Shown here piece after piece: positions 41,411 through 50,402 of a stretch of DNA of 64,000 nucleotides. Made by a program: the position numbers and the translations under genes. This DNA is from Hyphomicrobiales bacterium (GTDB lineage: Bacteria; Pseudomonadota; Alphaproteobacteria; SPJN01), in NCBI GenBank assembly GCA_006844605.1, contig SPJN01000001.1, positions 74,024 through 138,023 of the forward strand, written 5' to 3'. Under the pieces are notes generated by a model, which was given only the letters and a program-made list of their open reading frames with translations, had not been told where the DNA came from and did not search any database. Within the stretch, counting starts at the first letter, position 1. Every line of letters begins with the position of its first letter.

Positions 41411-41443
41411 CCCTATCTGGCCACAAATGAATTCACACAAAGA

Positions 41444-41476
41444 AAAAGGCCGGTCGCAAGACCGGCCTTTCTAATT
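41444..41476. terminator. bidirectional rho-independent terminator (GGCCGGTC-gcaa-GACCGGCC flanked by A- and T-runs)
   Basis: Seen directly between convergent genes. Confidence 0.65.
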
Positions 41477-41494: not shown

Positions 41495-42826
41495 TTAAAG
41501 ACCCAGACCGATCAGACCCAAAATGGTGTCGGGGCCGAAGCCTGCGCCACCACCGCTGGGTGACAGACCTTTAAGGTTGATCAGCATTGTGGTCGGGTCA
41601 GTGTTGCCACCAACGGCTTCCAGAATGGTGATCTCTGTCAGGCCTGATGCATCGCTAAGCGGTGCCAATAACGGCAGGCCAATTTCCAACAGGGCGTCGG
41701 AACCGGCTGCGCCGGGCTGACCGGAAACCCCAATGGCAACCAGTGATTCCAGATCAGGAATGCCTGAAGGGGCACCTGACGGTGCGCTACCTGCATCAAG
41801 GTTCAGCAATGCTGTGGCAGGATCAGTGTTGCCGTTAATCGCTTCCAGAACAGAAATGTTGACATTCTCGCCACCGTCAAACACCTGCAGGGCAGACGCC
41901 TGTACGATATTGTTCTTGGAACCACCAGCGGGGTCGTTACCAATCACAACATCGGCAAGTGAGCTTTGGTTGGCTGCAGATGCCGGATCACTTGAAAGAC
42001 CGGTCAGGCCCTGACCAACAGCAACCGCAATAACGGAACCATTGTCGCCAGAGGCACCACCGAAGCTCAAGCTACCATTTTGATCTGATGTGGCGTCGTC
42101 AGCTGCTGAGCTGGCCAAATCACCATCAAGGCCGTCTGCTGAACCATCATCATTAACGTCATCGCTGGCAATTGCATCGCCTGATGCGCTGGGATCGTCC
42201 AAGCTATCGTCACCGTCGCCGTCACCGGCTGCTGCAACATCGTCGCCTGAATCAGCGCCGTCTGTTGTGTCGTCACTGGCATCACCGAACAGATCATCGC
42301 CTGCATCGGTGTCGGTGCCGCCTGTTGTGTCGTCAGCGAACAGATCGTCGAACTCATCTGCGTCGTCAGCTTCTGCTGCCTCATCGGCGGCATCACCGGC
42401 GTCGGCCATGTCGTCGGCAACGTCATCATCGGCTGCATCTTCTGCAACCTGATCATCACCCGCGGCGTCATCACCGGTTTCGGCTGTTTCTTCTTCGTCA
42501 CCGAAAAGGTCTTCATCATCGGCGAACAAGTCTTCTTCTTCGTCTGATTCTTCAGCGAACAAGTCTTCTTCTTCGTCGGCACTTTCATCGTCGGTCATGA
42601 AGTCGGCGAAAAGATCATCTTCATCTTCCGCATCTTCGGTTTTACATTCGTCAGGAATATCCTGTTCCAGAAAACCAAGTGCTGCGGCGTCTTTATATTC
42701 GGCGCACTTGTCTTCTTGTGCTGCCATATCTTCCTGCGCGTCAACGAAGGAAGGGGCACCAATTGACAAGATGCCTGCGAATGCGATGGCGCTGATGCCA
42801 CCCAAAAGTTTGTGACGGATAGACAT
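41495..42826 (-). CDS. secreted polyacidic repeat protein (hypothetical)
   Basis: Signal peptide, about 250 aa of D/E-rich low complexity with repeated (E/D)DLF(A/G)D units, then a C-terminal Gly/Ser-rich region with two ~25-aa repeats (LEA(I/V)NGNTDP.T.L.NL). Confidence 0.6.
   Translation of the reverse strand: MSIRHKLLGGISAIAFAGILSIGAPSFVDAQEDMAAQEDKCAEYKDAAALGFLEQDIPDECKTEDAEDEDDLFADFMTDDESADEEEDLFAEESDEEEDLFADDEDLFGDEEETAETGDDAAGDDQVAEDAADDDVADDMADAGDAADEAAEADDADEFDDLFADDTTGGTDTDAGDDLFGDASDDTTDGADSGDDVAAAGDGDGDDSLDDPSASGDAIASDDVNDDGSADGLDGDLASSAADDATSDQNGSLSFGGASGDNGSVIAVAVGQGLTGLSSDPASAANQSSLADVVIGNDPAGGSKNNIVQASALQVFDGGENVNISVLEAINGNTDPATALLNLDAGSAPSGAPSGIPDLESLVAIGVSGQPGAAGSDALLEIGLPLLAPLSDASGLTEITILEAVGGNTDPTTMLINLKGLSPSGGGAGFGPDTILGLIGLGL
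42490..42600. repeat. intragenic 33-bp tandem repeats (GCGAACAAGTCTTCTTCTTCGTC at 42522 and 42555) encoding EEEDLFA units
   Basis: A 23-bp perfect direct repeat with 33-bp period, seen directly. Confidence 0.6.
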
Positions 42827-43054
42827 GATAACTCCACTTAATACGCGTAAACCCGCTGAGTGAGACGGATATTAAACCATTCTACTAATTGTGCTAGCCC
42901 CCAAAGCTACTGAATCGGCGTTATAGGCAATGTGGCGTTGCAAACATGTCCCATATTGGTCGGGATTACTAACAGACCGTTAATTCGGCCTTGATTTGCA
43001 GCGCCGGGTGCTATTCATTGTGCGTGAGGATGATTGTTTCAGAAGGAAATTCCT

Positions 43055-44437
43055 ATGCGTATTGCGTCTAAAGCGTCCTTTTCTAGGAAATTGATGGCTT
43101 CGACCGCACTGGTTGGTGCGTTAACCATTGGCATCATTGGGGGTGCCACGACTGCTCAAGCTGACGAAATGATGTCAGCGCAGGAGCGTGCTTCGCTTGA
43201 AGCGTCGCTAGAGCAGCAGCGTCTTGCCGCCCTTGCACAGCCCAGCAACATGCAAATTCAATTTGAACGTGCAATGACAGCCAAAAAATTGGGATACACG
43301 GATGAAGCGATCCGCGTTCTGTCAATGATGGTTGATCAGCAGCCCGGCCTTGCCCGTGCAGAGCTGGAATTGGCTGCTTTATACTACCAGTCAGGTGATT
43401 ACGAAAAAGCTAAGCCCCATTTTGAGGCTGCCGCCGCATCACCTAAAGCATCTGTTGAGCTTAAAGAGCGTATCGCTGTTTATCTTGAATCAATCGACAA
43501 CAAGCTGCGCCGGTCATTGACCACAGGCACATTGGTTGTCGGTGTGGGCTTCCAGACCAACGCCAATGGCGGTTCTGACGATTTCGCCAATACGGCCAAT
43601 ATCTCAGAAGTGGCTGAAGCTGACGACTTTAATCTGTTCGCGTCATTGGGCGTCAATCACAATCGTAAGGTTGGCGAATCAGACCGTACGGTTTGGGAAA
43701 ACAGCGGGAACCTGTATGGCTCCTTGCAGCTTGACGTTGATGAATTGAATCTGATGTATGCTGAAGTGTCATCAGGCCTGAAATTCGGTCTTGCTAATGA
43801 CAATCCCATGTCATTGAACATCAAGCCCTATGTGAAGCTTGGCTACCTGTTCCTTGAAGACACAACCTACCTGACGTCACCGTCAGCAGGTGCAGTCATG
43901 AACATGCAGCTTGGCGACAATATGGTTCTGGGCGTTGGTTACGACTTTACGCTTGAGATGTACAATAACAGCGACACGCGTACACGCGCCGAAGATCGTG
44001 ATGGCGATGACCATATGCTGACAGTCAGCCTGGGTATTGCTGCAACACAGCAGGATGTTTTGTCCTTCCAGCTGGATGCGGGCAAGAAATCAGCAGACAG
44101 GGATGAATGGTCATTTGATTCATTGGGCCTGTCAGCACGTTACTCACATAGCTTCGCTGAAGCCATCGTGCCGGGCACACTTGCCGGTACGTTAAGCCTT
44201 GGCGCGTCATATTACATGTCTGAATATGATGCCGCTGACCAAAATCTTACCGCAGTGGGTCTGGGCACGATTGTTCGTGAAGATGATCGTTTCGTTGTTG
44301 ACGCCGGTGCCGTGTTGCCGCTGTCAGACACAATGGGCATTTCAGTGGGCGCAAGCTACACCATGCAGGACTCAAACGTGTCCTTGTATGAATATGACAA
44401 TCTGCGTGTCTTGGCCGGGGTTGCATTCGCACTCTAA
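43055..44437 (+). CDS. outer-membrane protein with N-terminal TPR-like helical domain and C-terminal beta-barrel (DUF560/Slam-like, putative)
   Basis: Signal peptide, a helical TPR-like segment (AELELAALYYQSGDYEKAKPHFEAA), then about 300 aa of alternating amphipathic beta-strand pattern ending ...LAGVAFAL. An AGAAGGA RBS precedes the ATG at 43055. Confidence 0.5.
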   Translation: MRIASKASFSRKLMASTALVGALTIGIIGGATTAQADEMMSAQERASLEASLEQQRLAALAQPSNMQIQFERAMTAKKLGYTDEAIRVLSMMVDQQPGLARAELELAALYYQSGDYEKAKPHFEAAAASPKASVELKERIAVYLESIDNKLRRSLTTGTLVVGVGFQTNANGGSDDFANTANISEVAEADDFNLFASLGVNHNRKVGESDRTVWENSGNLYGSLQLDVDELNLMYAEVSSGLKFGLANDNPMSLNIKPYVKLGYLFLEDTTYLTSPSAGAVMNMQLGDNMVLGVGYDFTLEMYNNSDTRTRAEDRDGDDHMLTVSLGIAATQQDVLSFQLDAGKKSADRDEWSFDSLGLSARYSHSFAEAIVPGTLAGTLSLGASYYMSEYDAADQNLTAVGLGTIVREDDRFVVDAGAVLPLSDTMGISVGASYTMQDSNVSLYEYDNLRVLAGVAFAL

Positions 44438-44460
44438 GCTTTCACACAGCAGAACAAATA

Positions 44461-44495
44461 AAACCCCGGATCGGCTGATCCGGGGTTTTTCTTTT
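44461..44495. terminator. bidirectional rho-independent terminator (CCCCGGATC-ggct-GATCCGGGG + TTTTTCTTTTG)
   Basis: Seen directly between convergent genes. Confidence 0.7.
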
Positions 44496-47820: not shown

Positions 47821-48675
47821 TCAGGGTCTCAGGGCGATGTTCAAACAGCCCACCTTGTGCAGCATGGTGTCACCACTTTCAAAGATGCGATCAGCCTCTG
47901 CAAACAGGGGGGGTAGCGGTTGCCACTGCGGCGGGGCCGTTGGTTCATGCGGCCAAATAAACGCGCCTTGGGAAAAGTGGCTTGCCAATTCTTGTTGGAA
48001 GGCGGCGATATCCTCGCCCAGTCGCGTCATGCCATAGGGCCAATATTCGATCAGCATCAGGCTGGCCTGTGCCAGCACATGTTTGCCGCCGCGAAACAAT
48101 AATGGTTCCGCCCCTTGAATGTCGCTTTTGATGCATAGGGGGCGGGGCAAACTGTCTATATCGCCTAGTAATTCATCCAAGGGCGCTGTGGGCACGGTGA
48201 TCAGGTCACGGGTCGCCTCAGCCATCAGGTCGTTGCTGGCTGACGGGGTATCTTTGTGCAGGCGGTGGTCGCCGAAATTATCCGGCGCGCGTTCAAAGCT
48301 GATGGTGCCGGTTTTGTCGCTGATGGCCTGATTGATTATGGTGACGGGCGGGCAATCATTATGGGCGATGTTGCGCGTTAACAGTTCGGCATTCAGGGGA
48401 TCAGCCTCAATCGCGATCAGGTGCCTGAACAGGCCCGATTTGGCCTGCGGGATCAGCGTCAGGCCGATATTGGCCCCAATGTCGATATAGGTGCCGCCGG
48501 GGTGCTGATTGCCAAACTGCGAAAACAATGCGGTCACATCTTCGCCCCAAATAGCCTTATCCTGATAGGTGCTAAAAACCACCTTGTCGGCGGGCAGCCC
48601 TTCGATACGGCCATTGCGCCCGTCTGCAATCGCGGTATTGTGAAGCCGATTTTGGTCGGAAGGAGAAAGAGGCAC
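47821..48675 (-). CDS. FkbM-family SAM-dependent methyltransferase
   Basis: GTYIDIGANIGLTLIP SAM-binding motif typical of the FkbM family. GTG start. Confidence 0.65.
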   Translation of the reverse strand: MPLSPSDQNRLHNTAIADGRNGRIEGLPADKVVFSTYQDKAIWGEDVTALFSQFGNQHPGGTYIDIGANIGLTLIPQAKSGLFRHLIAIEADPLNAELLTRNIAHNDCPPVTIINQAISDKTGTISFERAPDNFGDHRLHKDTPSASNDLMAEATRDLITVPTAPLDELLGDIDSLPRPLCIKSDIQGAEPLLFRGGKHVLAQASLMLIEYWPYGMTRLGEDIAAFQQELASHFSQGAFIWPHEPTAPPQWQPLPPLFAEADRIFESGDTMLHKVGCLNIALRP

Positions 48676-48747
48676 GTGCGCAAAACCCTGTTTATAAAGC
48701 GGGGGCGGGAAAGCCGTTCTGATAGCAGGCGAAGCCCGGTCAAGGCA

Positions 48748-49602
48748 ATGACCGGATTGGCCTTGCTGGTTTTTGGCATGTTGGCGGTTCTGCCCGTCAG
48801 GGCTGATGATGCATATATACCTGTGGTGTGGTCTTCTGTGGTGGCTGCACCGACTGAGGAGGCGCTGGATGAAAGCCTGTATCAGCCAATGCAGGTGACC
48901 TTACGCCATCGGCAAACCGGGGCGACCAAAAGCGCTGCTGACTGTTTCGATACTGCCGATTTGATTGAGCGCGGGTATCGCCCTGATGGTGATATGGCCC
49001 ATGATGATGTGATCAATGCCTATCTGTGTTTGGCGCGCCGGATCATTGCTGCGGCAGCCATACCGGAAACCAGCCATATGCGTGATGGGAGTGGCGTCGC
49101 ACCGCCGCTGCATGTTGATGATATGAAGCGTCTGCCCGCCATGCTTGGCCCGGGGGAAAGTTGTGCCTTGCGTGCAGTTGGTCATTTAACGGGCAATGAT
49201 TGGTATTCCGTTGCGCGGTTCTTCCACATCTATATGGCGGGGCAAAAAGATGACTATCGCGAGGAACGCAGCATCGTAACCGACCCGGCGGCTTTGACCG
49301 CGACCACATTGTTGGTCACTGCACAAGGCCCGGACCAGTTGACATTGACAACGGCTAATAGCCATACAGTGTTGCAGCGCCTGGGGTTTGGCGATGTGAA
49401 TGGCGATGGCATTGATGACATGCTGTTGTTGCGCATTCCAAAAACCGGTGTGCCGCAATTGGCGGTGCTGACAAAGGTGCGTGCGGAAAGCTTGATCAGC
49501 CCATTGAACCGCACTGATATATTTCTAGACTTTTCCTATAGCTGCCCGGAAGAGGCGGTGGCGCTTGTCGCCCGTGGTGCGGACAAGGAAGGGTGTGATT
49601 GA
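48748..49602 (+). CDS. secreted hypothetical protein with Ca-binding-like DVNGDGIDD motif
   Basis: Signal peptide MTGLALLVFGMLAVLPVRA, four Cys, and an FG-GAP/dockerin-like DxNGDGxxD loop. Start re-placed to avoid the antisense overlap with the FkbM gene. Confidence 0.5.
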   Translation: MTGLALLVFGMLAVLPVRADDAYIPVVWSSVVAAPTEEALDESLYQPMQVTLRHRQTGATKSAADCFDTADLIERGYRPDGDMAHDDVINAYLCLARRIIAAAAIPETSHMRDGSGVAPPLHVDDMKRLPAMLGPGESCALRAVGHLTGNDWYSVARFFHIYMAGQKDDYREERSIVTDPAALTATTLLVTAQGPDQLTLTTANSHTVLQRLGFGDVNGDGIDDMLLLRIPKTGVPQLAVLTKVRAESLISPLNRTDIFLDFSYSCPEEAVALVARGADKEGCD

Positions 49603-50402
49603 TGCGCTGGCTGTTCCTGACTTTGCTGATGATGCTATTGACGCCCACGGCCCACGCCTTTGTTAGTGAGGCATTGGTGCCTGCCCCGCATGATGGGCAG
49701 CGAGATATTGTCGCCAGCTTTAACGCGCCGTTTGAACCGCTGGTTGAGGCGGACGGGGTTGGCAGCGTGACTTTGGTGCGGGAAAGTTTGACCGGGGCGC
49801 AGCGCCTGCGTGTTGAAAGCTGCGCGGCGTTAATGGACGTCTATTATGACGGCACGTGGGAGGTTGAGGCACAGGAAACTGTTTATTATACCCCGTGGCT
49901 GATTGCCCGCTGTGTCGCGCTTGATCAACTGGCGAGCGCCGGTGCGGCGGCGTTGACGACACAAATCTCAGCGCTGGAACTCGACCCCGATGACTTGCCC
50001 GCCCATCTTGCACCGTTTGAAAATTGTCAGGACCGGATTGATCATATTCGCGCTGCCCTTGCCGGGGAAACGTTGGCCGATCGCCTTGGTGATGGCTGGG
50101 AAGAGGTCGTTGATGATGAGGTGCATGAGGATGACGCCCGGCTGATGAAGTTAAAAACCGCACAAGGACGGACCCTGAAGGTTGAGCTGCTGGGATCATA
50201 CGGGACTGAAACACCGGTTTGGCTGGTGCTTGTCACCCAGTCCGACGACATGGTTGGCAGTACAGTGATGGAGGTTTGGCCCCTAACAAAGGCAGCCGAT
50301 GACGACGGGGTGACCTATGTGCAGGGATTGGATTTGGTGCAGGCCGCCATGACCACATGCCCCAGTTTTCTGCCCCTGCTGCTGACCGATGAGTGCCCCT
50401 AA
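49599..50402 (+). CDS. secreted hypothetical protein (Cys-containing)
   Basis: Signal peptide MMRWLFLTLLMMLLTPTAHA. The ATGA overlap with the upstream gene indicates an operon. Confidence 0.5.
   Translation: MMRWLFLTLLMMLLTPTAHAFVSEALVPAPHDGQRDIVASFNAPFEPLVEADGVGSVTLVRESLTGAQRLRVESCAALMDVYYDGTWEVEAQETVYYTPWLIARCVALDQLASAGAAALTTQISALELDPDDLPAHLAPFENCQDRIDHIRAALAGETLADRLGDGWEEVVDDEVHEDDARLMKLKTAQGRTLKVELLGSYGTETPVWLVLVTQSDDMVGSTVMEVWPLTKAADDDGVTYVQGLDLVQAAMTTCPSFLPLLLTDECP

What the first reader, a model, noticed from the sequence alone, without database searches (positions are those of the whole stretch)
41495..44437. Divergent pair: secreted polyacidic repeat protein and TPR+beta-barrel outer-membrane protein, a possible DUF560/Slam (type XI secretion) transporter-cargo pair
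The 43055..44437 product has a signal peptide, a roughly 100-aa TPR-like periplasmic helical region and a roughly 300-aa C-terminal region with beta-barrel-like alternation. That is the architecture of Slam/DUF560 outer-membrane translocators. Slam/T11SS cargo genes are typically encoded adjacent to the transporter. The divergently transcribed neighbour is a signal-peptide-bearing protein of extreme acidity with (E/D)DLF(A/G)D repeats and a C-terminal Gly/Ser-rich beta-prone repeat domain that could be the handle domain a T11SS recognises. A polyacidic, non-lipidated cargo would be unlike the known T11SS substrates (TbpB, hemophilin, HrpB). Both genes are bounded by strong bidirectional terminators (41444, 44461), which delimits a two-gene module.
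Basis: inference. Interest (0 to 1): 0.65.

Follow-up and report, generated by a model that had tools for sequence, protein, structure and literature searches.

The report
Slam-like outer-membrane channel with polyacidic partner
A marine alphaproteobacterium encodes a distant relative of the Slam/type 11 secretion outer-membrane channel next to a secreted, extremely acidic disordered protein that lacks the barrel domain carried by all known cargo of this system, so it is a candidate new kind of substrate, though export has not been tested.

Summary
41495..42826(-) encodes a 443-aa Sec-signal protein with net charge about -107 and six (D/E)(D/E)LF(A/G)(D/E) motifs (0.012 expected). 43055..44437(+) encodes a 460-aa signal-peptide protein with TPR repeats and a roughly 14-strand barrel. 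Hairpin terminators flank the pair.

The OMP is a divergent member of the DUF560/Slam (T11SS) lineage. It misses Pfam SlipAM itself (14.8 bits, cutoff 22). Its profile reaches 1396 full-length relatives, and some pass the cutoff (26-31 bits).

In 27 of 27 loci outside the window's branch, the OMP gene is followed by a FecR-domain secreted protein. In 21 of them that partner carries a C-terminal domain resembling the Slam-dependent cargo barrel (NCBIfam slam_lipo E 4.8e-10, below cutoff).

In the window's clade that partner is absent. A divergently transcribed polyacidic protein takes its place, down to 38% OMP identity with changing flanks. An analogous acidic repeat protein occurs at 27%.

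The acidic protein shows no detectable cargo barrel (hhalign 0.1%; structure model uninformative).

Verdict: a probable transporter-partner pair of the T11SS kind with a non-canonical, barrel-less candidate cargo. Export is untested. This is a new variant of a known kind, of moderate-to-good interest.

The parts
41443..41472 (.). Bidirectional hairpin terminator closing the acidic-protein gene and the convergent acyl-CoA ligase gene
   Evidence: 13-bp stem with 7 G-C pairs and T-runs on both sides.
41495..42826 (-). Gene for the secreted polyacidic protein (443 aa)
   Evidence: ORF. Composition and motifs. Homologues P0006 (69%) and P0007 (54%), the L005 protein (50%) and the L008 protein (C-terminal domain E 1.4e-17).
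42737..42826 (-). Signal peptide, residues 1-30 (…SFVDA|QE), Sec/SPI type, no lipobox
   Evidence: By inspection of the translation. The first 18 residues are almost invariant in the four closest homologues.
42644..42706 (-). N-terminal Cys41…Cys61 loop containing ALGFLEQD
   Evidence: A Cys pair with 15-25 residue spacing is present in 6 of 7 partner proteins. A disulphide is inferred, not shown.
42077..42736 (-). Polyacidic, probably disordered region (residues 31-250) with six (D/E)(D/E)LF(A/G)(D/E) motifs
   Evidence: 43% D+E. Motif count 6 against 0.012 expected, with 0 of 20,000 shuffles reaching 6. AF2 predicts no structure here. Only a weak 21-bp DNA tandem repeat, so not a recent duplication.
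41498..42076 (-). C-terminal Gly/Ser/Asn-rich domain (residues 251-443), the most conserved part of the protein
   Evidence: Conserved down to the L008 homologue (E 1.4e-17). No Pfam, NCBIfam or PDB match. No similarity to the T11SS cargo barrel.
41888..41962 (-). Signature motif SLADVVIGNDPAGGSKNNIVQASAL (residues 289-313)
   Evidence: Found once in the window protein, twice in L008, in a degenerate form in L007, and 4-6 times in the L031 partner. BLASTP of this stretch against L031 gives E 0.006.
42827..43054 (.). Shared 228-bp divergent promoter region
   Evidence: Alignment of four relatives. No sigma-70-type consensus found.
42937..42959 (+). Conserved box GTTGCAAACATGTCCCATATTGG, a candidate shared regulatory site
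   Evidence: Unique in the window, with 0 expected at up to 3 mismatches. Present once or twice in the same intergenic region of L001-L006 and nowhere else in the 34 loci held at the time of the search.
43055..44437 (+). Gene for the TPR + beta-barrel outer-membrane protein (460 aa), a divergent DUF560/Slam-lineage member
43055..43162 (+). Signal peptide of the OMP, residues 1-36 (…TTAQA|DE)
   Evidence: By inspection. Conserved in P0002 and P0003.
43178..43516 (+). Periplasmic TPR region, residues about 42-154
   Evidence: TPR_14 at 27 bits (cutoff 23.5). TPR_Slam at 24.1 bits (cutoff 35.2). Six helices in the model with pLDDT 72-84.
43523..44431 (+). Beta-barrel of about 14 strands, residues about 157-459
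44460..44489 (.). Bidirectional hairpin terminator closing the OMP gene and the convergent aldehyde dehydrogenase gene
   Evidence: 13-bp stem called on both strands.

Best explanation
The two genes form a dedicated two-gene outer-membrane export module of the type 11 secretion (Slam/DUF560) kind, with a non-canonical substrate.

Proposed mechanism:
1. Both proteins enter the periplasm through Sec.
2. The OMP inserts in the outer membrane as a roughly 14-strand barrel, with its TPR domain facing the periplasm.
3. The polyacidic protein is intrinsically unfolded and almost free of Lys and Arg. It is captured by the OMP and threaded across the outer membrane. Capture is probably through its conserved C-terminal domain (the ADVVIGNDP…NIVQ signature), its N-terminal Cys loop, or both.
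4. Outside the cell it is released or stays associated as a polyanionic, probably cation-binding, surface protein.

What is shown: the architecture and homology of the OMP, the conserved pairing, and the mutual exclusivity of the acidic partner with the canonical FecR-plus-barrel partner.

What is inferred: translocation itself, the recognition element, the final location and the cation-binding role.
For: OMP belongs to the DUF560 lineage:
- The window protein gives sub-threshold hits to SlipAM (E 0.021) and TPR_Slam (E 5e-5).
- phmmer finds a SlipAM-annotated Novosphingobium protein at E 3e-5.
- The profile search finds 1396 full-length relatives.
- Among them, P0010, P0014 and P0004 pass the SlipAM cutoff at 29.1, 31.3 and 26.0 bits.

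The wider OMP family behaves as T11SS:
- In 27 of 27 non-acidic loci the next gene encodes a signal-peptide FecR-domain protein. In 21 of them it carries a C-terminal domain.
- That domain hits NCBIfam 'Slam-dependent surface lipoprotein' at E 4.8e-10, FHBP_C at 2e-5 and TbpB_B_D at 2.5e-4.
- Its PDB profile hits are fHbp, GNA2132 and Lipoprot_C.

The acidic protein takes that partner's place:
- None of the 9 acidic-type loci holds a FecR or barrel protein. None is found elsewhere in the 64-kb window either.
- The OMPs paired with acidic proteins form one clade.
- The divergent pair persists at 92, 65, 61, 44 and 38% OMP identity while the flanking genes change.
- At 27% identity (P0010, SlipAM-positive) there is a divergent acidic repeat protein sharing the signature motif.

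Other support:
- A shared intergenic box is specific to the pair.
- Slam translocates unfolded substrates (PMC9090332), which suits an intrinsically disordered protein.
- Net charge of -92 to -111 is conserved across seven very divergent partners, so polyanionic character appears to be selected.
Against: - The defining cargo feature, a C-terminal 8-strand barrel, is not detectable in the acidic protein. Its extreme C-terminus varies or is missing in homologues.
- The acidic gene lies upstream and divergent, not downstream and co-directional like the FecR partners. It is therefore not a simple in-place replacement.
- Homology of the L007 and L031 partners to the window protein is weak (BLASTP E 0.2 and 0.006).
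- Only seven independent loci are known, all from uncultured bacteria.
- The window OMP itself fails the Pfam cutoffs for SlipAM and TPR_Slam.
- There is no experimental evidence of export.
Confidence: 0.45

Rival explanations
1. The two proteins work together but not as transporter and cargo. For example, the acidic protein could stay in the periplasm or on the inner face of the outer membrane as a cation buffer or as a regulator or plug of the OMP. The OMP would then act as a channel or receptor, its TPR domain docking the acidic protein.
For: - The pairing is conserved and the promoter region is shared.
- No cargo-type barrel is found in the acidic protein.
- The gene is placed differently from the FecR partners.
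Against: - The sister clades carry canonical-type cargo, and the acidic partner is strictly alternative to it.
- An unfolded polyanion with about 100 negative charges has no obvious periplasmic role.
Confidence: 0.25
2. The adjacency is inherited synteny with no functional link. The OMP's real substrate, if any, is encoded elsewhere in the genome. The acidic protein is exported or retained independently.
For: - Four of the seven loci are close relatives that also share flanking genes (Aldedh, LysR, MIP).
- About half of Slam homologues have no adjacent lipoprotein gene (PMC5449769).
Against: - The pair stays together at 38-44% OMP identity, and probably at 27%, while both flanks change.
- A pair-specific conserved intergenic box exists.
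- None of the 27 other loci of the family has such a protein, and every acidic-type locus lacks the FecR partner.
Confidence: 0.15
3. The OMP is a TPR-plus-barrel exporter of an exopolysaccharide or other polymer, like PgaA, BcsC or PelB. The acidic protein is unrelated or a matrix component.
Against: - PgaA-type barrels have 16 strands (PMC8406197).
- No glycosyltransferase or synthase genes are adjacent. The neighbours are acyl-CoA ligases, an aldehyde dehydrogenase, LysR and MIP.
- Sequence similarity points to SlipAM and DUF2860, not to the EPS porins.
Confidence: 0.03

Closest known systems
Slam / type 11 secretion system outer-membrane proteins (DUF560, Pfam PF04575 SlipAM; Neisseria Slam1/2, Xenorhabdus NilB/HrpB)
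   Same: - Signal peptide, periplasmic TPR domain and a C-terminal barrel of about 14 strands.
- Detectable, mostly transitive, sequence homology.
- Encoded next to a Sec-exported partner.
- Sister clades carry partners with a Slam-type cargo barrel.
   Different: - The window protein is below the Pfam cutoffs for SlipAM and TPR_Slam.
- Its adjacent partner has no detectable 8-strand barrel, is not a lipoprotein, and is transcribed divergently.
- The host is an uncultured, apparently free-living alphaproteobacterium rather than an animal-associated one.
T11SS cargo of the 'disordered N-terminus' architecture (Grossman et al. 2025, PMC12282271)
   Same: A long disordered N-terminal region after the signal peptide, followed by a conserved C-terminal domain. 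The gene is encoded beside the OMP.
   Different: - Those cargoes are mostly lipoproteins and all end in the TbpBBD-type 8-strand barrel.
- This protein is non-lipidated and has no detectable barrel.
- It is extreme in charge (about -107, K+R 1.6%).
Marine cluster 3 T11SS OMPs of Rhodobacteraceae/Roseobacteraceae (PMC12282271)
   Same: Alphaproteobacterial DUF560-type OMPs from aquatic settings whose neighbourhoods mostly lack barrel cargo, which raises the same question about alternative substrates.
   Different: Cluster 3 co-occurs with DUF1194/vWA proteins, thymidylate synthase and glyoxalase. None of those is beside the pair in the window, and the candidate partner here is a polyacidic protein. 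Membership of the window OMP in cluster 3 was not tested.
DUF2860 (PF11059), an uncharacterised outer-membrane barrel family
   Same: Close relatives of the window OMP pass the DUF2860 cutoff over the C-terminal half of the barrel (P0009 28.7 bits, P0004 27.8).
   Different: The window protein itself gives no DUF2860 hit at E up to 1. The SlipAM alignments cover more of the barrel. No function is known for DUF2860.

Membership tests
Slam/T11SS OMP (DUF560, PF04575) | N-terminal periplasmic TPR domain | tested here: met
   TPR_14 at 27 bits against a cutoff of 23.5. Six helices at residues 42-154 in the model. The Slam-specific TPR_Slam model reaches only 24.1 bits against 35.2.
Slam/T11SS OMP (DUF560, PF04575) | C-terminal barrel scoring above the Pfam SlipAM gathering cutoff (the window protein itself) | tested here: not met
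   14.8 bits, E 0.021, cutoff 22. The alignment spans residues 233-453 and profile positions 80-281 of 288.
Slam/T11SS OMP (DUF560, PF04575) | Homology to bona fide SlipAM members through intermediate sequences | tested here: met
   The profile of the window subfamily hits P0010 at 5.8e-53 and P0014 at 1.2e-44 over the full length. These score 29.1 and 31.3 bits on SlipAM, and P0004 scores 26.0. 11 of 81 family members hit SlipAM at E<=1e-3.
Slam/T11SS OMP (DUF560, PF04575) | 14-stranded barrel topology | tested here: met
Slam/T11SS OMP (DUF560, PF04575) | Adjacent gene for a cargo with a C-terminal 8-strand TbpB-like barrel | tested here: not met
   In the window, hhalign of the acidic C-terminus against the cargo barrel gives 0.1%. 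No barrel-profile hit is found in any window ORF. The feature is met in sister clades, in 21 of 27 loci.
Slam/T11SS OMP (DUF560, PF04575) | The OMP is necessary and sufficient for surface display or secretion of the partner | not testable with these tools
   Requires a co-expression or translocation assay.
T11SS cargo (TbpBBD / slam_lipo NF041636 / FHBP_C) | Sec signal peptide (SPI or SPII) | tested here: met
   An SPI-type signal ending VDA|QE, by inspection. No predictor was run.
T11SS cargo (TbpBBD / slam_lipo NF041636 / FHBP_C) | C-terminal 8-stranded beta-barrel | tested here: inconclusive
   - No sequence similarity.
- The AF2 model was built from only three sequences. It has pLDDT 35 and no fold.
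- About ten short hydrophobic segments are present, so a very divergent beta domain cannot be excluded.
Exopolysaccharide TPR-porins (PgaA/BcsC/PelB) | 16-18-strand barrel and adjacent polymer synthase genes | tested here: not met
DUF2860 (PF11059) | Score above the Pfam cutoff of 22.9 bits | tested here: not met
   No hit for the window protein at E<=1. Relatives P0009, P0004, P0010 and P0016 pass at 23.6-28.7 bits.

The most novel reading that the evidence does not exclude
A clade of T11SS-lineage translocons has switched from barrel-tagged cargo to a barrel-less, intrinsically disordered polyanionic substrate. Recognition would go through a new signal: the ADVVIGNDP…NφφQ repeat, the N-terminal Cys loop, or both. 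This would be a second cargo-recognition mode for type 11 secretion and a first answer to what the non-cluster-1 T11SS OMPs export.
Probability: 0.3. Interest if true: 0.7.

Novelty: new variant of a known kind. Interest (0 to 1): 0.55.

Why it matters
- All experimentally verified T11SS cargoes come from one animal-associated cluster and share a C-terminal 8-strand barrel.
- What the other clusters transport, especially the environmental and marine ones, is an acknowledged open question (PMC12282271).
- This pair offers a concrete, cloneable test case: two genes, a shared promoter, and clean terminators on both sides.
- The test is whether a Slam-like channel can move a barrel-less, fully disordered polyanion.
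- A positive result would widen the substrate rules of the system. It would also point to a class of extremely acidic bacterial surface proteins, with possible roles in cation binding or particle and mineral interactions.
- The side observation of FecR-domain proteins with a Slam-type barrel beside hundreds of alphaproteobacterial OMPs may be the more general result. It links T11SS-like export to FecR/CHASE2 signalling neighbourhoods.

Tried and rejected
1. The word-index homologue search with the acidic protein found only two proteins. The same search with a C-terminal-domain profile found nothing, not even the known homologues. Low-complexity words probably filled the candidate list.
2. Two metagenome-contig scans, one with the acidic C-terminus and one with the OMP profile, found nothing.
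The five-sequence alignment A5 worked.
The three-sequence job gave pLDDT 35, so its model was not used for fold search.
6. The PDB profile search with the whole OMP alignment was swamped by TPR hits.
7. S. meliloti NsrA was considered as a relative because of the FecR/CHASE2 context. It is about 1200 aa, and the describing paper is not held. I did not pursue it.
8. A sigma-54 reading of the conserved box on its reverse strand was rejected. By inspection the spacing is GG-N9-GC, not N10. No sigma-70 consensus was found either.
9. The variable C-terminal tail (…GLIGLGL) was considered as a sorting signal. I rejected this because it is absent from P0007 and the L005 protein.
10. The NCBIfam MamA hit (E 5.7e-6 against a cutoff of 200 bits) reflects generic TPR similarity only.
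Full report

Yes. ORF listing shows a 443-aa ORF at 41495..42826 on the minus strand and a 460-aa ORF from the ATG at 43055 to 44437 on the plus strand. An upstream TTG at 43034 is unlikely to be the start. The sequence AGAAGGAAATTCCT directly precedes the ATG and is invariant in relatives.

The minus-strand product begins MSIRHKLLGGISAIAFAGILSIGAPSFVDA|QE. By inspection this is a Sec type I signal with no lipobox cysteine. Residues 31-250 are 43% Asp+Glu. The whole protein has 1.6% Lys+Arg, and the mature protein has a net charge of about -107. It carries six [DE][DE]LF[AGS][DE] motifs against 0.012 expected from composition, and none of 20,000 shuffles reached six. At the DNA level there is only a weak 21-bp two-copy repeat, so the motifs are not a recent tandem duplication.

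The plus-strand product has a signal peptide (…TTAQA|DE). It has TPR repeats, with TPR_14 at 27 bits against a cutoff of 23.5. The three-sequence AlphaFold model has helices at 42-154 followed by about 14 strands at 157-459, with pLDDT 61 and pTM 0.47. Hairpins with 13-bp stems sit at 41443-41472 and 44460-44489. The flanking genes are two acyl-CoA-ligase-type genes, an aldehyde dehydrogenase, a LysR regulator, an aquaporin and an FkbM methyltransferase. None has an evident link to the pair.

**2. What is the OMP?**

On its own the window protein gives only sub-threshold matches to the two Slam models: TPR_Slam at 24.1 bits (cutoff 35.2, E 5e-5) and SlipAM/DUF560 at 14.8 bits (cutoff 22, E 0.021, covering residues 233-453). 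The word-index search found three close homologues. It also found, at E 3e-5, a Novosphingobium protein that UniRef calls a surface lipoprotein assembly modifier.

A profile of the three close sequences, run against 1.8 billion representatives, found 1396 proteins at E<=1e-3 and 539 at E<=1e-10. Nearly all are 430-480 aa and align end to end. Of 81 sampled members, 11 match SlipAM, 14 match TPR_Slam and 10 match DUF2860 at E<=1e-3. Scored individually, P0010, P0014 and P0004 pass the SlipAM cutoff at 29.1, 31.3 and 26.0 bits, the last two across almost the whole model. P0008 and P0009 just miss it at 20.6 and 20.9 bits. Some members also pass the cutoff of DUF2860, an uncharacterised barrel family.

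The published definition of Slam/T11SS OMPs is a periplasmic TPR domain plus a 14-stranded DUF560 barrel (PMC5449769; PMC8406197). I conclude that the window OMP is a divergent member of the DUF560 lineage. It lies outside the current Pfam boundary.

**3. Independent evidence from partners in the wider family**

A genome scan with a five-sequence OMP profile returned 25 loci. Contig look-ups added more. In every locus outside the window's branch, the gene directly after the OMP, on the same strand, encodes a signal-peptide protein with an N-terminal FecR domain. This covers L009-L030, L032-L034, L036 and L037, or 27 of 27 (Pfam PF04773 E about 1e-6 to 2e-7; tally).

In 21 of those loci the partner carries a conserved C-terminal domain of about 170 aa, sometimes split by MAG frameshifts. 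The domain ends …GSFFQGG…YGEMGGSLILNG…YLGSGIFAARKP. For the L034 partner, this domain hits NCBIfam NF041636 'Slam-dependent surface lipoprotein' at E 4.8e-10 (39.9 bits, below the equivalog cutoff of 80). It also hits Pfam FHBP_C at 2e-5 and TbpB_B_D at 2.5e-4, both just under cutoff. A profile of five such C-termini ranks factor H-binding protein, GNA2132/NHBA and a Lipoprot_C protein at the top of PDB. The individual E-values are weak, 0.04-0.2.

These are the barrel domains of known Slam substrates. So the wider family looks like a genuine T11SS with canonical-type soluble cargo. No FecR-headed cargo architecture is mentioned in the T11SS cargo survey that I read (no occurrence of 'FecR' in PMC12282271). 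In the hemophilin study, FecR appears only as a co-occurring regulator.

**4. The acidic partner**

The acidic protein has very few relatives.
- P0006 is 69% identical and P0007 is 54% identical.
- The L005 protein is 50% identical.
- The L008 protein matches in its C-terminal domain at E 1.4e-17.
- The L007 protein (421 aa, 24% D+E, no Lys or Arg) is recognisable only by its signal peptide, Cys loop and composition. BLASTP gives E 0.2.

All of these lie divergently upstream of an OMP of the window's clade, at 92, 65, 61, 44 and 38% OMP identity. The flanks differ.
- On the acidic side they are AMP-binding genes (window, L004), an MR_MLE enzyme (L001), an Fe-S-type oxidoreductase (L007) and an ABC-type gene (L008).
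- On the OMP side they are an aldehyde dehydrogenase in most loci and a different gene in L008.

P0010 is 27% identical and passes the SlipAM cutoff. It also has a divergent upstream secreted protein: 623 aa, 17% D+E, 1.9% K+R, with no Pfam or NCBIfam hits. That protein carries four to six copies of the unit [IV]GDDPxxGxxxN[LV][VI]Q[VL]xLLDG. The same signature occurs once in the window protein (SLADVVIGNDPAGGSKNNIVQASAL, residues 289-313) and twice in L008. BLASTP of that stretch gives E 0.006. I treat the L031 and L007 proteins as analogous partners sharing a motif, not as proven homologues.

Across all seven partners the conserved properties are:
- a net charge of -92 to -111;
- K+R of 2% or less;
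- a Cys pair 15-25 residues apart just after the signal peptide, in six of seven;
- the signature motif.

The DLF motif is confined to the four closest homologues. A neighbour-joining tree puts the six OMPs paired with acidic proteins in one clade. P0010 branches near its base, and the FecR-paired OMPs fall elsewhere.

No acidic-type locus contains a FecR or barrel protein (0 of 9). The 64-kb window holds no barrel-type cargo, no convincing FecR-partner match and no second OMP paralogue. The only hit there was a 14.5-bit match of a short ORF at 916-1179 to a doubtful L009 ORF.

The intergenic region holds a 23-nt box, GTTGCAAACATGTCCCATATTGG, at 42937-42959. It is unique in the window. It is present once or twice in the same position in L001-L006 only.

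**5. Is the acidic protein a canonical cargo?**

The evidence does not show this.
- Profile-profile comparison of that domain with the cargo-barrel alignment gives probability 0.1%.
- Pfam, NCBIfam and a PDB profile search give nothing.
- The last 20-60 residues are variable, or absent in P0007 and the L005 protein.
It has pLDDT 35 and no fold, so this test is inconclusive rather than negative.

By inspection the domain has about ten short hydrophobic segments separated by Gly/Asn/Asp/Pro turns. That pattern could equally suit a solenoid-like or repeat beta structure.

**6. Most likely mechanism**

I think the pair is a T11SS-type export module whose substrate class has changed (confidence about 0.45). 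Both proteins would cross the inner membrane by Sec, which is inferred from the signal peptides. The OMP forms the outer-membrane channel, which is supported by homology and the model. The acidic protein, being natively unfolded, would be passed through it. Slam1 is known to translocate unfolded substrate and to read a C-terminal specificity motif (PMC9090332). Outside the cell the protein would act as a polyanion, most simply by binding cations or coating surfaces.

Steps shown:
- the lineage and architecture of the OMP;
- the conserved, clade-specific pairing that is mutually exclusive with the FecR partner;
- the shared promoter region.

Steps inferred:
- translocation;
- the recognition element;
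- the final location and the function.

Rivals:
- a functional pair that is not transporter and cargo (0.25);
- mere synteny (0.15);
- an exopolysaccharide-type exporter (0.03).

**7. Comparison with known systems and novelty**

The system works like, and descends from, Slam/T11SS. It fails two membership rows: the direct Pfam score, and an adjacent barrel cargo. Its nearest precedents are the 'disordered N-terminus' cargo architectures and the marine cluster 3 T11SS OMPs, whose neighbourhoods mostly lack barrel cargo (PMC12282271). Neither involves a polyacidic, non-lipidated, barrel-less partner.

I rate it a new variant of a known kind, with interest 0.55. The OMP assignment is solid but unsurprising. 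The partner is unusual, and it makes an open question in the T11SS field directly testable. Everything about export, however, remains inference from about seven loci of uncultured bacteria.

Noticed in passing
L009-L030, L032-L034, L036, L037 (e.g. L034:4028-5851, L032:4781-7411, L014:7281-9758): In the wider OMP family the gene directly after the OMP encodes a signal-peptide protein with an N-terminal FecR domain. It usually also has a C-terminal domain resembling the Slam-dependent cargo barrel (slam_lipo E 4.8e-10, FHBP_C 2e-5, TbpB_B_D 2.5e-4). This FecR-headed candidate T11SS cargo class is not mentioned in the T11SS cargo survey I read, and it may be the commoner arrangement in Alphaproteobacteria.
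   Followed up: partly
L026:8167-10434 (Bradyrhizobium erythrophlei): A CHASE2 + adenylate/guanylate cyclase sensor lies just downstream of the OMP and FecR genes. This recalls the S. meliloti CyaD1 (CHASE2 cyclase) signalling system and the FecR-domain protein SMc02177, a target of the cAMP regulator Clr (PMC5498481). FecR partners exported by this OMP family might feed CHASE2 signalling.
   Followed up: no
window 42937-42959: A 23-nt box, GTTGCAAACATGTCCCATATTGG, sits in the divergent promoter region. It is unique in the window, conserved in L001-L006 and duplicated in L001, L002 and L005. The regulator is unknown. Its reverse strand resembles a sigma-54 promoter, but with spacing one base short.
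   Followed up: partly
window 42969-42983: cTAA-N7-TTAA lies in the same intergenic region. In all four aligned relatives one half-site is a perfect TTAA, with N7 spacing. This resembles the CtrA box of Alphaproteobacteria, so cell-cycle control is possible. I did not test it statistically.
   Followed up: no
L035 (GCA_905231925.1, contig CAJNJV010011112.1): Family member P0016 is recorded on an 869-kb contig where the called gene spans 1441 bp for 419 aa and does not translate directly. The assembly therefore looks eukaryote-type. This could be bacterial or symbiont DNA in a eukaryotic assembly, or a transferred gene.
   Followed up: no
window 48421-49602 and 49599-50402: Two overlapping ORFs (393 and 267 aa) beside the FkbM-type methyltransferase have no Pfam match. 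Genes of similar size with no Pfam hit sit in the same place in L004 (2429-3229 and 3229-4158). They appear to be a conserved pair of unknown function.
   Followed up: no
window 42067-42600, both strands: Several long ORFs of 120-173 aa overlap the acidic gene in other frames and on the opposite strand. They are most likely artefacts of the GAT/GAC/GAA-rich, stop-poor sequence and not genes.
   Followed up: no
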